From Malacoraja senta (taxonomy: Eukaryota): a stretch of 64,000 bases of DNA. Positions 30,001 to 33,000 of the stretch are shown here, piece after piece. The stretch is taken from assembly GCA_038087875.1 (NCBI GenBank), contig CM075985.1:18848001-18912000 (forward strand), read 5' to 3'. Position numbers: made by a program. The first letter of the stretch is position 1, and each line of letters begins with the position of its first letter.

Positions 30001-33000
30001 GCTGACCATGGGTGTCTCCAGGGTTGAAGGACGCCAGTGCGTGACTTTGTTTAATGTGGGGAGACTGGTGCACAGACAGCCACCACACAGTCCTTGACAG
30101 ATCTGGGTCAGGATCCAGTGACATGGAGTCCAAGAGGACCGGAGACCCTTTTCTGCTGCAGCCTTCCCAGCCATTGTGACGCTCCACTAAGGTCAGCCAT
30201 CATCCTCTGCCTGTTCCACCGTTGAGGTCTTGGTTCCTAAGCAAAGTTATATCCAATTTTAGCTCAAATCTCACTCCTTTGTATTTCAGTTCCAATGCAA
30301 CAAAAATAACATCGGAAATAGGTGCAGGAGTAGGCCATTCGGTCCTTTGAACCAGCACCACCATTCAATATGATCATGGCTGATCATCCAGAATCAGTAC
30401 ACCGTTCCTGCTCTCTCCCCATATCCCTTGATTCCGATAGCCCTAAGAGCTACAATATATAGTTTTTCTTATTATGAGCTGTATCGTATTTATTTCTTTG
30501 CAGGGATATGTAGATTTCTCTCTCTGCAGTCCATAACTTCCATCATTTATTTTAGTATTTGTTTTGTAAATCTGTAGAAGATTATCTTATACTTACCCCA
30601 CACTGAACTTTAATTACCAGTTTTTATCAGTAGTGAGATTATTTTGCAATGATTTGGTTCCAACATGACTGATTTTTATGCCACTTATGGACATCAGCAA
30701 ACTTGGATATGAAACATGCGTAGGAAGGAACTGTGTATGCTGGTTTACACCTAAGATAGACACAAATTGCTGGAGTAACTCAATGGGTCAGGCAGCATCT
30801 CTAGAGAAAAGGAATAGGTAACGCATCGGGTCGAGACCCTTCTTCCGAACTGCCTGACCCGCTGAGTTACTCCATCATTTTGTGTCAATCTTTGGATATA
30901 AAACACTCTTTCATCATTTGAGTAATTTCTGACCACGGTGAAAAGAAGCCCCTTATGGTTCTTTACCAGTTATATTCTGGCCACCGGATCATGTAACCAC
31001 GAGATCTACAGTATGTGTGCCTCCTACCTAAATAGACCTTTTGCCTTTTCAAAGGTTTAGCTCCAATTCCATACTGTTTCACGTATCTCAACAGTCTCTC
31101 ACCTGGAACTGAGTTAAATGCCTACTGTAAGTTAAAATAAATAACATCCATGGACATAGGCTTAACTACCATGTTAGATATCTCTACAAAATCTCAGCTT
31201 GGTTTGTTAAACATCACTTACTGTTTATTATTGATGGTCTAAACTCCAAAAGAACTCAGTATTCTAGGAGTGCCTTCACCTCCGTGTTATAATTTATGTA
31301 TCATTTGGCTCAGGTCAATGTGACCTTTCACCATCATAGTGAAAGGCACAATAAATACATGGTGGAGCCAATTTAACAGTGGGGAAGAATGTATTTATAG
31401 AATGTAGCATTGACCTTGGGCTATTTTGCCAAGTCACTCTTTGAACGTTGTCTTATTGCTGTTTACACACATTGCAACATGCACATTGCTCCTGATAGAC
31501 AGCGCACAGTAGAGTTGGCATATTTTAAAAGAAAGAGATAAACTGGTTGAGTGATTTGGGAGAGAAATTCCACAAGGCTGGTCAAACAAAGTAGAAGTGT
31601 TCAGATAGATACATAGATACATAGAAAATAGGTGCAGGAGTAGGCCATTCAGCCCTTCGAGCCTGCACCGCCATTCAATATGATCATGGCTGATCATCCA
31701 ACTCAGTATCCCGTACCTGCCTTCTCTCCATACCCCCTAATCCCTTTAGCTACAAGGGCCACATCTAACTCCCTCTTAAATATAGCCATGAACTGGCCTC
31801 AACTACCCTCTGTGGCAGAGAGTTCCAGAGATTCACCACTCTCTGTGTGAAAATGTTTTTTCTCATCTCGGTCTTAAAGGATTTCCCCCTTATCCTTAAG
31901 CTGTGACCCCTTGTCCTGGATGTTTGCGGTAAACTGATAAAATCAATTACAAAAAGTTGCAAACCAGAAGTGGGAGGGCTTCTGAATGCTGTCTTACTCC
32001 ATATGTAAGTTGTGACAGCCAAAGATAAATATATCTTCCAGACCAAGAGAGATACCCAAGATAAATAGATTTACACTCCATACCATTTTATCAGTCAGTA
32101 TGCCCAGTAATACATGAACAACACAGCACAGAGGTTTTTCAGCCCAACAGCAGCCCATCTTTGGTGTAAACCTACATCAGCAGTTCCTTCCTACTCCTCT
32201 GTCAATGATTATAAAGTCATAGGGTCATACAGCGTGGAAGCAGCCCTTTCGGCCCAACTTGCCCACACTGACCAACAGATCCCATCTACACTAGTACCAC
32301 CTACCTGAGTTTGGCCCTTATCCCTATAACCCTGTTTTGTCCATAGACCTGTCTAACTGCTTCTTAAACATTATGATAGTCCGTACCTCAACTACCTCCT
32401 CTGGCAGCTTGTTCCATACACCCACCATCCTTTGCGTGAAAAAGTTACCTCTCAGATTCCTATTTTTATGTTCTGAACAAGCATTCTCTTATCCTTATTC
32501 TATCTCCATGCGTGAAAATGACCAGATCAGAACTGCTGACTTAGACCATGAAGCTGACATGGGCCAAATGCTGAGAGCAGGGATCACCTGTGTGGGCAGT
32601 ATACAGCTGCAGGCTAATCAACTGCTGTCTGATAATAACTTTCAATATGTTCAAACGTTTTAACATGTGATGGAGGCCAAACATAACTTCCATAGATACA
32701 ATGGTGTCACACTTACATTCAGATATCAGGTACAATTACATGGTCACAAGGGATTTGGCTTGGATGGAAAAAATTTAAACATCAACATTTTCCTACACCT
32801 GTTCTCTCGTTTGAAACCCGTTAACTATATTTCGATATAAAATGTCATGTGTAAACAAATACTTCAATCCTGCAGTACTTTTCTAATTGTTTATAATTCA
32901 ATAGTTTCTGACCATGGAACCTTTTATAACTGCTGTATTGTAAATTTTGTAGACAGTTGGAACCAAAGAGGTATAGATACATTCTCTCTGTATTTCTTCT

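What the first reader, a model, noticed from the sequence alone, without database searches (positions are those of the whole stretch)
30703..30905. Miniature fold-back pLTR elements repeat the same architecture
Seen: a 175-bp inverted pair with 3' ends outward and a 14-bp TSD. One arm is complete and the other stops ~30 nt short at a TT(GG) microhomology, the same asymmetry as the 6.2-kb unit, and both TSDs start TTGGAT. Similar inverted pairs occur at ~3672-3845, 13855-14182, 15605-15770, 17843-18025, 34850-35040 and 57665-57890. Inference: double-ended priming is routine for this family and yields MITE look-alikes that could be misannotated as DNA transposons.
Basis: partly seen in the sequence, partly recalled or inferred. 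Interest (0 to 1): 0.66.

Follow-up and report, generated by a model that had tools for sequence, protein, structure and literature searches.

The report
Miniature inverted Penelope-element insertion
This 175-bp hairpin-shaped repeat is two stubs of the 3' end of a Penelope-like retrotransposon inserted head to head at one site, a typical by-product of how these elements insert and not a new kind of element.

Summary
Window 30717-30891 is two inverted copies of the ~135-nt 3'-terminal unit of a Penelope-like element (PLE), 3' ends outward, flanked by a 14-bp direct repeat (13/14). One arm carries the full 36-nt end piece; the other stops where it begins. The 6.2-kb unit (18617-24820) has the same design: two abutting 5'-truncated RT/GIY-YIG copies, one long and one short end, TSD also starting TTGGAT.

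A profile scan gave 43 unit copies. Among neighbours 30 bp apart or less, 9 are head-to-head, 1 tail-to-tail and 3 direct. Inner junctions differ, so this is not one amplified MITE.

This is the published PLE architecture: an inverted 5'-truncated copy, a 30-40-bp "tail" often at one end only, and cleavage plus extension of both target strands in vitro (PMC8557442, PMC3846280, PMC11167929; passages read).

The microhomology explanation of the short arm is not general: about 16 of 36 copies stop there, mostly without TTGG. Only 2 of 11 pairs have a detectable TSD. Four pairs have non-canonical outer ends.

Verdict: real, a new member of a known kind, low to moderate interest.

The parts
30703..30716 (.). 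Left copy of the 14-bp target-site duplication (TTGGATATGAAACA)
   Evidence: Direct repeat D1; 13/14 identical to 30892-30905; empirical p 0.0007
30717..30752 (-). 36-nt 'tail' (long 3' end) of the left arm. It is present on this arm only.
   Evidence: Alignments. The same tail is present in about 20 of 36 copies and absent in about 16.
30717..30852 (-). Left arm: complete 3'-terminal PLE unit in antisense on the + strand (profile 4-136). Its inner end lies at the family's common 5' end, just before the CTGAAGA-type motif. The hammerhead-like core is mutated here (CGGAAGA...GATGCGTT in place of CTGAAGA...GAAACGTY).
   Evidence: nhmmer E 7.8e-41; direct reading
30850..30852 (.). CTG shared by the inner ends of both arms (3-nt junction microhomology)
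   Evidence: Direct reading. The left arm continues as ...ccgaaCTG and the right arm starts CTGcctgaccc.
30850..30891 (+). Right arm: 5'-truncated unit in sense (profile ~60-101), ending at the family-wide short 3' end
   Evidence: nhmmer E 1.1e-10
30892..30905 (.). Right copy of the TSD (TTGGATATAAAACA)
18601..18616 (.). Left TSD of the 6.2-kb inverted unit (TTGGATGAAAGTCTTT; 14-16 bp, because the boundary with the tail is ambiguous)
18617..22040 (-). Left copy of the 6.2-kb unit. Long 3' end at left. Coding matches to residues 265-801 of a relative (P0001), broken into separate frames and pieces. Interrupted by a nested 1.6-kb insert at 20199-21803.
22049..24820 (+). Right copy of the 6.2-kb unit. 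Open frame 22019-24061 with RT and GIY-YIG, matching residues 134-801 of P0001. Nested ~555-bp repeat at 24083-24637. Short 3' end at 24820.
24821..24836 (.). Right TSD of the 6.2-kb unit
3668..3835 (.). Old head-to-head pair. Spacer 45 nt, both outer ends near the short end, no TSD at its edges.
4970..5120 (.). Head-to-head pair, palindromic about ...ttcag a ctg... The right arm ends at profile 49.
6644..6795 (.). Head-to-head pair with a 25-nt sense tail fragment between the arms
10042..10205 (.). Head-to-head pair with a 1-nt spacer. The right arm ends at profile 39-41. The left arm is in tandem with 9896-10025.
13853..14183 (.). Head-to-head neighbours that are two separate insertions. The right copy 13969-14184 has its own TSD, 13955-13968 and 14185-14198 (12/14).
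15603..15771 (.). Head-to-head pair. Long end at left, right arm ends at profile 66-68, spacer 21 nt.
17848..18025 (.). Head-to-head pair. Left arm ends at profile 72-88, long end at right, spacer 22 nt.
34845..35042 (.). Old head-to-head pair. Short end at left, partial tail at right, spacer 17 nt.
57654..57875 (.). Old head-to-head pair. Both arms carry diverged tails, spacer 17 nt.

Best explanation
The 175-bp element is the dead-on-arrival product of one insertion event by a Penelope-like retrotransposon of a cartilaginous fish. It has no function of its own.

Proposed steps:
1. The element's GIY-YIG endonuclease nicked both target strands 14 nt apart, at a T-rich site (TTGGAT...).
2. Each exposed 3' OH primed reverse transcription of PLE RNA. 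One strand started at the distal ('long', tail-containing) start site and the other at the proximal ('short') start site, 36 nt upstream.
3. Both cDNAs stopped early. One reached the family's common 5' end, just before the hammerhead-like core. The other stopped after about 42 nt.
4. The two cDNA 3' ends paired through CTG/CAG and were filled in and ligated.

The result is two inverted stubs with 3' ends outward, a tail on one side only, and a 14-bp TSD around the whole. The 6.2-kb unit is the same product with much longer cDNAs.

Shown by the sequence: orientation, end positions, TSD, junction microhomology, family-wide long/short ends, and the excess of head-to-head pairs. Inferred: the order of events, use of two RNA molecules or two units of one multimeric RNA, and the enzymes involved.
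For: - The arms are homologous to the region downstream of an RT + GIY-YIG open frame, in the same sense. That frame has 1822 relatives at E <= 1e-10 among 8000 scored. The best named ones are from elasmobranchs: 71% Mobula hypostoma, 67% Chiloscyllium punctatum, 66% Rhincodon typus.
- One TSD flanks the pair as a whole (13/14, p 0.0007). Neither arm has a direct repeat of its own (reading).
- Both outer ends are the family's two canonical ends. Among 36 copies reaching profile position 95, about 20 have the tail and about 16 stop at the short end.
- The inner end of the long arm lies where at least six solo or tandem copies also start. One of these is solo 24948-25082, which has its own TSD, 11/13.
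- CTG is shared at the junction.
- The 6.2-kb unit repeats the design with directly abutting copies truncated at residues 265 and 134 and a 16/16 TSD.
- Head-to-head 9, tail-to-tail 1, direct 3 among close neighbours. Shuffles reached 9 head-to-head in 47 of 100000.
- Literature, passages read: an inverted 5'-truncated copy adjacent, and a 30-40-bp tail often at one end only (PMC8557442); an inverted pLTR plus TSD plus a 31-bp tail on one inverted pLTR, with head-to-head most frequent (PMC3846280); a purified PLE protein cleaves and extends both top and bottom strands and starts reverse transcription at two adjacent internal sites that delimit the tail (PMC11167929).
Against: - Only 2 of 11 head-to-head pairs show a TSD. 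The other nine are 64-86% identical between arms, so a decayed TSD and no TSD cannot be told apart.
- Four pairs have an arm ending at a non-canonical position (profile 39-88). Simple priming at the two start sites does not predict this.
- Two pairs (4970, 10042) are palindromic at the junction, as self-priming would give.
- The two arms of the finding are 40/48 identical. Each is only the 6th of 36 or 3rd of 42 closest relative of the other. A common origin is not shown by sequence.
- The sample is one 64-kb window. No eukaryotic genome collection was available.
- Rfam found no hammerhead, even at E <= 10, in 9800-18800. The ribozyme assignment rests on a motif count: 6 exact matches against 0.05 expected.
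Confidence: 0.6

Rival explanations
1. Self-priming (snap-back). A single cDNA, primed at the long end, folded back on itself at or near its 3' end and copied itself. The second arm was then joined to the other side of the break.
For: - PMC3846280 (passage) infers self-priming from palindromes at inverted junctions of Penelope copies.
- In this window the pairs 10042-10205 and 4970-5120 are palindromic about ...cttcag a ctgaag...
- Pairs 15603, 17848, 34846 and 57688 have spacers of only 17-22 nt around the palindromic GGGTC..GACCC stem.
- In 10042, 4970, 15603 and 17848 the second arm ends at non-canonical positions, as expected if its length is set by where the end was joined.
Against: - For the finding itself the spacer is 54 nt and strongly asymmetric.
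- The second arm stops exactly at the short end used by about 16 other copies. A fold-back copy has no reason to do this.
- The same holds for the 6.2-kb unit, whose arms are truncated at residues 265 and 134.
Confidence: 0.17
2. Internal deletion. The element began as a long inverted unit like the 6.2-kb one and later lost its centre, by deletion between the arms at a CTG microhomology.
For: - Same ends, same kind of TSD and same long/short asymmetry as the 6.2-kb unit.
- A 3-nt microhomology at the junction is also what a deletion leaves.
- That long inverted repeats are deletion-prone is established knowledge, recalled.
Against: - The left arm's inner end coincides with the family's common 5' end, which is also seen in solo TSD-flanked unit-length copies. 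Under deletion this would be a coincidence.
- Nine other small pairs also have junctions within the last ~135 nt.
Confidence: 0.1
3. An amplified non-autonomous fold-back element: a MITE-like or hairpin SINE-like unit that transposes as a whole.
For: - Terminal inverted repeats of 46-56 nt, a TSD, small size and no coding capacity.
- A strong hairpin, z -6.7.
Against: - No second copy with this junction exists among 43 unit hits in the window.
- The 10 small pairs show at least six different junction and outer-end combinations.
- The arms are retroelement 3' ends that also occur singly with their own TSDs of 10-17 bp.
- The two arms share no derived substitutions relative to the other copies in alignment A1.
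Confidence: 0.05
4. Two independent insertions, the second landing by chance or by endonuclease preference at the 5' end of the first.
For: - This is what happened at 13853-14183, where the right copy has its own 12/14 TSD between the arms.
- 13726-14183 holds three separately flanked copies.
- PLE endonuclease is reported to recognise its own tail-containing sequence (PMC11167929 passage, citing earlier work).
Against: - In the finding, the only significant direct repeat spans both arms.
- The sequences at the inner sides of either arm do not repeat its outer flank (reading).
Confidence: 0.05

Closest known systems
Canonical EN+ Penelope-like element insertions (Penelope/Poseidon type): pLTRs, an adjacent inverted 5'-truncated copy, and an optional 30-40-bp 'tail'
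   Same: - RT plus C-terminal GIY-YIG in one frame.
- Heavy 5' truncation, partial tandems and head-to-head inverted copies.
- A 36-nt extension on one end only.
- TSDs of variable length (10-17 bp here; 8-10 bp in Adineta vaga, PMC3846280).
- A hammerhead-like core in the terminal repeat.
   Different: - Both arms are tiny (133 and 42 nt), so no coding or internal sequence is left.
- No direct pLTR accompanies the inverted one.
- In three searches of the held library I found no description of such miniature pairs as a class, nor of this family in cartilaginous fishes. I read none of those papers in full, and their supplements were closed.
L1 twin priming (5' inversion of LINE-1 insertions); recalled from Ostertag and Kazazian 2001, not read here
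   Same: The second target strand's 3' OH primes reverse transcription on RNA instead of on the first cDNA. This gives an inverted segment inside one TSD, joined by microhomology.
   Different: - In L1 the two segments are different, adjoining parts of one RNA, and the second priming is internal and annealing-driven.
- Here both arms cover the same sequence and both start at the element's own start sites.
- They therefore form an inverted repeat and need two templates or a multimeric RNA.
MITEs / Foldback-type DNA transposons
   Same: Small size, terminal inverted repeats, flanking TSD, no coding capacity, strong hairpin.
   Different: - The arms are retroelement 3' ends.
- The ends are asymmetric by 36 nt.
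- Junctions differ between copies.
- TSD length varies (10-17 bp) instead of being fixed.
Metazoan non-LTR retrozymes: tandem hammerhead-bearing non-autonomous relatives of PLE pLTRs (PMC7229834, listing only; bioRxiv 10.64898/2026.07.22.740005, abstract and passages)
   Same: - Short units with a hammerhead-like core related to PLE terminal repeats.
- Unit-length solo copies and short direct tandems occur here (9896/10042, 12951/13065, 13726/13853).
   Different: - Only dimers were seen in this window.
- The unit is about 135 nt.
- No evidence on circular RNA.
- The finding is an inverted pair, not a tandem.

Membership tests
Penelope-like elements (EN+) | Single ORF with a PLE-type reverse transcriptase followed by a C-terminal GIY-YIG endonuclease | tested here: met
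   Frame 22019-24061(+) matches RVT_1 (E 1.2e-4) and GIY-YIG (E 7.7e-4); both are below Pfam's curated cut-offs. It has 1822 relatives at E <= 1e-10 among 8000 scored, the best at E 5.9e-227. tblastn maps residues 134-801 of P0001. This holds for the family's long copies. The 175-bp element has no ORF and is tied to them by homology of its arms to the region downstream of that ORF.
Penelope-like elements (EN+) | Terminal repeats from partial tandems (pLTRs) and/or an adjacent inverted 5'-truncated copy | tested here: met
   3 direct and 9 head-to-head close neighbours against 1 tail-to-tail. The 6.2-kb unit consists of two abutting inverted copies.
Penelope-like elements (EN+) | [quoted passage not shown] | tested here: met
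   A 36-nt extension is present on the left arm only (30717-30752). The same long/short dimorphism occurs across 36 copies and in the 6.2-kb unit.
Penelope-like elements (EN+) | Hammerhead ribozyme motif in the terminal repeat | tested here: inconclusive
   The pattern CTGANGA-N11-15-GAAAYRTY occurs 6 times against 0.05 expected, always inside unit copies. By my reading it has the extra base before helix II, a G-C closing pair and a palindromic ACGT, as described for PLE minimal hammerheads (PMC4209133 passages). Rfam gives no hammerhead hit at E <= 10 in 9800-18800. I could draw only about 2 bp of helix I. In the finding's own arm the core is mutated.
Penelope-like elements (EN+) | 5' truncation and TSDs of variable length | tested here: met
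   5' ends range from a unit-length start to several hundred bp upstream. Six TSDs of 10-17 bp were verified.
MITE (non-autonomous DNA transposon) | Many copies sharing the same two ends and internal structure, with a TSD of fixed length typical of a transposase superfamily | tested here: not met
   No second copy has this junction among 43 hits. Junctions and outer ends differ between pairs. TSDs are 10-17 bp. Only 64 kb could be searched.
L1-type twin priming product | The inverted and direct segments are adjoining, non-overlapping parts of the element | tested here: not met
   The arms overlap over profile ~60-101 and form a 46-56-nt inverted repeat.
Non-LTR retrozyme | Head-to-tail tandem arrays of hammerhead-bearing units expressed as circular RNA | not testable with these tools
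   Only three direct dimers were seen in the window. No expression data were available.

The most novel reading that the evidence does not exclude
In this cartilaginous-fish PLE family the nicked target may help choose the reverse-transcription start site.

All four TSD-verified insertions that abut a short end have TSDs beginning (T)TGGAT, GGAT, AAGAT or CTGAT. These can pair with the first bases of the tail (TTTGGTT / TTCGATT). On this reading the primer would anneal there and skip the tail. Targets that mimic the element's own tail junction would also be the ones cut on both strands, and so would yield inverted pairs.

This contrasts with the in-vitro report that PLE initiation is independent of homology to the target (PMC11167929). 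It would make these miniature pairs natural read-outs of both-strand cleavage.
Probability: 0.15. Interest if true: 0.45.

Novelty: new member of a known kind. Interest (0 to 1): 0.28.

Why it matters
The finding adds little new biology. It shows, in a vertebrate lineage where I found no description of the family, that the peculiar PLE insertion signature persists when both copies are truncated to stubs. That signature is both target strands used as primers, two start sites 36 nt apart, and head-to-head products.

Two practical points follow:
1. Such stubs have inverted ends, a TSD and a strong hairpin. Structure-based MITE finders, hairpin-RNA predictors or miRNA predictors could pick them up. 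In this window 22 of the 43 unit copies sit in head-to-head pairs, the 6.2-kb unit included.
2. TSD-flanked miniature pairs are compact natural records of a single insertion event. A genome-wide table of their ends, junctions and targets would test in vivo what has so far been shown for one lizard element in vitro.

Tried and rejected
- **Rfam hammerhead models.** No hit at gathering score in the window or at E <= 10 in 9800-18800. The miRNA and snoRNA matches there are far below their cut-offs and only reflect the hairpins.
- **One amplified MITE.** Rejected because the junctions differ.
- **A decayed unit copy as the target of the 6.2-kb unit.** The left flank plus TSD aligns 12/14 to the short-end/tail junction, but shuffle p is 0.09. 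The finding's flanks gave p about 0.7. Not claimed.
- **Arm-to-arm identity as a test of common origin.** Partners are each other's best match in 1 of 11 pairs (15603) and rank 2nd to 32nd elsewhere. The arms are too short and too decayed to decide.
- **A composite element made of the unit plus a ~320-bp repeat.** This was suggested by adjacency at 12469/12495 and 15296/15303. It is rejected: the repeat is a separate SINE-like family with a (TTTAG)n end, and only two of its six copies have a unit beside them, with a weak third hit.
- **A general 14-nt similarity between short-end flanks and the tail.** Matches are 1-8 of 14, roughly what chance gives.
- **TSD search for solo copies with 11-mers.** Several hits are at chance level (about two expected). 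Only repeats of 11 nt or more that sit at both element edges were kept.
- **Paper supplements.** These were closed. Figures S1 and S2 of PMC11167929 and the supplementary files of PMC8557442 may already tabulate tail and target data that bear on the microhomology question.
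Full report
**What is at the coordinates**

Window 30717-30891 (175 bp) is flanked by TTGGATATGAAACA (30703-30716) and TTGGATATAAAACA (30892-30905), which match 13/14. I scored the best direct repeat at the edges of 3000 random pairs of positions. Under that test this repeat has an empirical p of 0.0007.

Inside there is an inverted repeat of 46-56 nt at 84-87%, with a 54-nt spacer. The stretch folds as single-stranded DNA at -38.8 kcal/mol, z = -6.7.

**What the arms are**

A BLAST of the element against the window showed that positions 4-132 are a repeat present many times, and that positions 134-175 are the reverse complement of positions 38-79 of that repeat.

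[quoted passage not shown] It has 1822 relatives at E <= 1e-10 among 8000 candidates scored. The best named ones come from sharks and rays, at 64-71% identity. This is a Penelope-like element (PLE), and the window very probably comes from a cartilaginous fish.

The repeat unit lies about 100 nt downstream of that frame's stop in the left copy, in the same sense. In the right copy a nested repeat pushes it further away.

The unit begins with CTGAAGA-A-GGGTCTCGACCC-GAAACGTC. This has the features described for minimal PLE hammerheads (PMC4209133, passages). The pattern occurs 6 times against 0.05 expected, always inside units. Rfam's hammerhead models do not score it, so I treat the ribozyme as likely and not shown.

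The left arm of the finding is therefore a unit in antisense and the right arm is a unit in sense.

**The two kinds of 3' end**

I built a profile from nine long copies. It found 43 copies at E <= 1e-3. Of the 36 that reach profile position 95, about 20 continue for a further ~36 nt (...ccagcatctgcagttccttcctaca). About 16 stop at ...gtgtctatctt, with unrelated sequence after it (classified by eye from that table).

The finding's left arm has the long end (30717-30752 is the extra piece). Its right arm has the short end. The short arm is therefore not a peculiarity of inverted pairs. It is the family's alternative end.

The literature describes exactly this:
- A 31-bp tail on one of the inverted pLTRs (PMC3846280).
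- In a lizard PLE, two adjacent internal start sites of reverse transcription that delimit the tail (PMC11167929).

I read passages of these papers, not the whole texts. Their supplements were closed.

**The 6.2-kb unit**

I ran tblastn with two relatives (P0001, P0006).
- The left copy, on the minus strand, covers residues 265-801 (22040 down to 18862). It is interrupted by a 1.6-kb nested insert at 20199-21803, which has a 97.8% twin at 26419-28021.
- The right copy, on the plus strand, covers residues 134-801 (22049-24049). A ~555-bp repeat is nested in its 3' region at 24083-24637.

The two copies abut within about 10 bp. The left one ends with the tail and the right one ends at the short end. 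Both sides carry TTGGATGAAAGTCTTT, 16/16.

**Is the arrangement recurrent?**

Among successive hits 30 bp apart or less, 9 are head-to-head (3' ends outward), 1 is tail-to-tail and 3 are direct.
- Shuffling orientations reached 9 head-to-head in 47 of 100000 trials.
- 9 against 1 gives a one-sided binomial p of 0.011.
- Random placement gives a mean of 3.3 close neighbours, against 13 observed.
- Solo copies give no reverse-strand hit of their own, so the pairs are not an artefact of the unit's internal palindrome.

**Is it one amplified element?**

No. The inner junctions and outer ends differ:

| Pair | Junction and ends |
|---|---|
| Finding (30719) | Profile 4 joined to profile ~60 |
| 3668 | Profile 4 joined to profile ~41 |
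| 10042 and 4970 | Palindromic about ...cttcag a ctgaag..., second arms ending at profile 39-49 |
| 15603 and 17848 | Spacers of 21-22 nt around the GGGTC..GACCC palindrome, with the complete arm on opposite sides |
| 34846 and 57688 | 17-nt spacers |
| 6644 | A tail fragment lies between the arms |

**Limits of the 'routine double-ended priming' claim**

- Only the finding and the 6.2-kb unit have a significant TSD. The other nine pairs give p of 0.02-0.96. Their arms are 64-86% identical, so decay may hide TSDs.
- The pair 13853-14183 is two events. The right copy, with about 80 nt of upstream PLE sequence, has its own TSD, TTTGAATAGGGA (12/14), lying between the arms. Its neighbour 13726-13824 has another TSD of its own (10/11).
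- Four pairs have one arm ending at a non-canonical position. Some have palindromic junctions, which fits the self-priming idea of PMC3846280 as well as, or better than, priming from both strands.

**Mechanism for the finding itself**

The geometry follows from the sequence.
1. The top strand left of the insert, ending ...GAAACA-3', primed the antisense-reading left arm from the long start site.
2. The bottom strand right of the insert, ending ...ATCCAA-3', primed the right arm from the short start site.
3. The nicks were 14 nt apart, in the same geometry as ordinary target-primed reverse transcription. The difference is that the second 3' OH copied RNA instead of the first cDNA.
4. The first cDNA ran to the position just before CTGAAGA. 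At least six solo or tandem copies also begin there, including 24948-25082, which has its own TSD.
5. The second cDNA stopped after 42 nt.
6. Their 3' ends...CTG and ...CAG, are complementary. CTG at 30850-30852 belongs to both arms.

This matches the in-vitro observation that a PLE protein cleaves and extends both strands. The order of steps and the use of two templates are inferred.

**TTGGAT**

Both clean inverted units have TSDs starting TTGGAT, and the tail starts TTTGGTT or TTCGATT.

The six verified TSDs start TTGG, TTGG, T(T/G)AAG, TTTG, TTTG and GCTT. One of the TTTG cases abuts a long end.

Two units also sit at or near the (TTTAG)n end of SINE-like repeats.

[quoted passage not shown] It also cites earlier work that the Penelope endonuclease needs the tail sequence for recognition.

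I therefore read TT(T)G as a nicking preference that resembles the element's own tail junction. Base-pairing with the RNA may contribute but is not required, because most short-ended copies lack it. With six TSDs this remains exploratory, and the motif was chosen after seeing the data.

**Novelty**

The design is the published PLE architecture: an inverted 5'-truncated copy, a one-sided tail, a TSD and a head-to-head preference. What may be new is only the degree of truncation and the host lineage.

Three searches of the held library found nothing on miniature PLE pairs as MITE look-alikes, nor on this family in cartilaginous fishes:
- Penelope-like + pLTR + inverted + tail
- Penelope + shark + hammerhead ribozyme + retrozyme
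- Penelope-like + pLTR + MITE

That library lacks most subscription journals, so this is weak evidence of absence.

**What stayed unchecked**

- The N run at 33038-33196 was left as it is.

Noticed in passing
window 45440-45516 (-): The only Rfam gathering-score hit in the window is the 'mammalian' CPEB3 ribozyme (RF00622): 42.3 bits against a cut-off of 35, E 5.7e-8, full model 1-78, with long runs identical to the mammalian consensus. By its PLE proteins the window looks like a shark or ray genome. If so, this HDV-like ribozyme is far older than mammals. One paper in the held library has both 'CPEB3 ribozyme' and 'shark', and there the two are unrelated. A broader search was uninformative. 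I did not check whether CPEB3 exons flank it.
   Followed up: partly
window, 5' ends of unit copies, e.g. 25079-25082, 48868, 55067, 13822, 10025: At least six solo or tandem copies, and the longer arm of most inverted pairs, start within a few bases of ...cag|tctgaaga, just before the hammerhead-like core. Longer copies have a pyrimidine-rich run followed by CAG there, like a 3' splice site. This suggests a discrete ~135-nt template RNA, or a strong stop for the reverse transcriptase. Unexplained.
   Followed up: partly
window 13712-14198: Three unit copies, each with its own TSD, lie within 500 bp: 13726-13824, 13853-13960 and 13969-14184. The third was inserted exactly at the 5' end of the second. 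This could be local pile-up or self-targeting by the endonuclease.
   Followed up: partly
window 12155-12576 and 14976-15414; also 15772-15790: A ~320-bp SINE-like family has six copies at 75-80% identity: 9034-9307, 12155-12469, 14976-15296, 17494-17816, 28740-29054 and 47248-47523. It has a tRNA-like part and a (TTTAG)n end. PLE units sit at or near that microsatellite end in two copies. The copies 15303-15414 and 15782-15845 share the flank tgagtttag. This fits a T-rich or microsatellite target bias.
   Followed up: partly
window 3656-3668 and 4134-4146: The 12/13 direct repeat CTGGACTGC(T/A)ATC encloses the old PLE pair 3668-3835 together with about 300 bp of an unrelated repeat. It may be a composite or template-switched insertion, or chance; I estimate about 0.15 such matches over all copies tested.
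   Followed up: no
window 24083-24637, 31600-31920, 62265-62810: A young repeat, 95-96% identical between copies. One copy is nested in the 3' region of the right PLE copy. Not identified.
   Followed up: no
window 20199-21803 and 26419-28021: A 1.6-kb segment is duplicated at 97.8%. One copy is nested in the left PLE copy. Not identified.
   Followed up: no
window 61248-62718 (+): Two adjoining open frames have strong RVT_1 matches (E 4.4e-17 and 7.7e-12). tblastn with the PLE relatives did not hit them, so this is another, non-PLE retroelement.
   Followed up: no
window 1-357 (+): A third copy of the young PLE subfamily runs off the window start. It is 90.8% identical to 18645-18994. Its unit is 96-97% identical to the arms of the 6.2-kb unit. 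It stops at the short end, with flank catccactg, that is, without TTGG.
   Followed up: no
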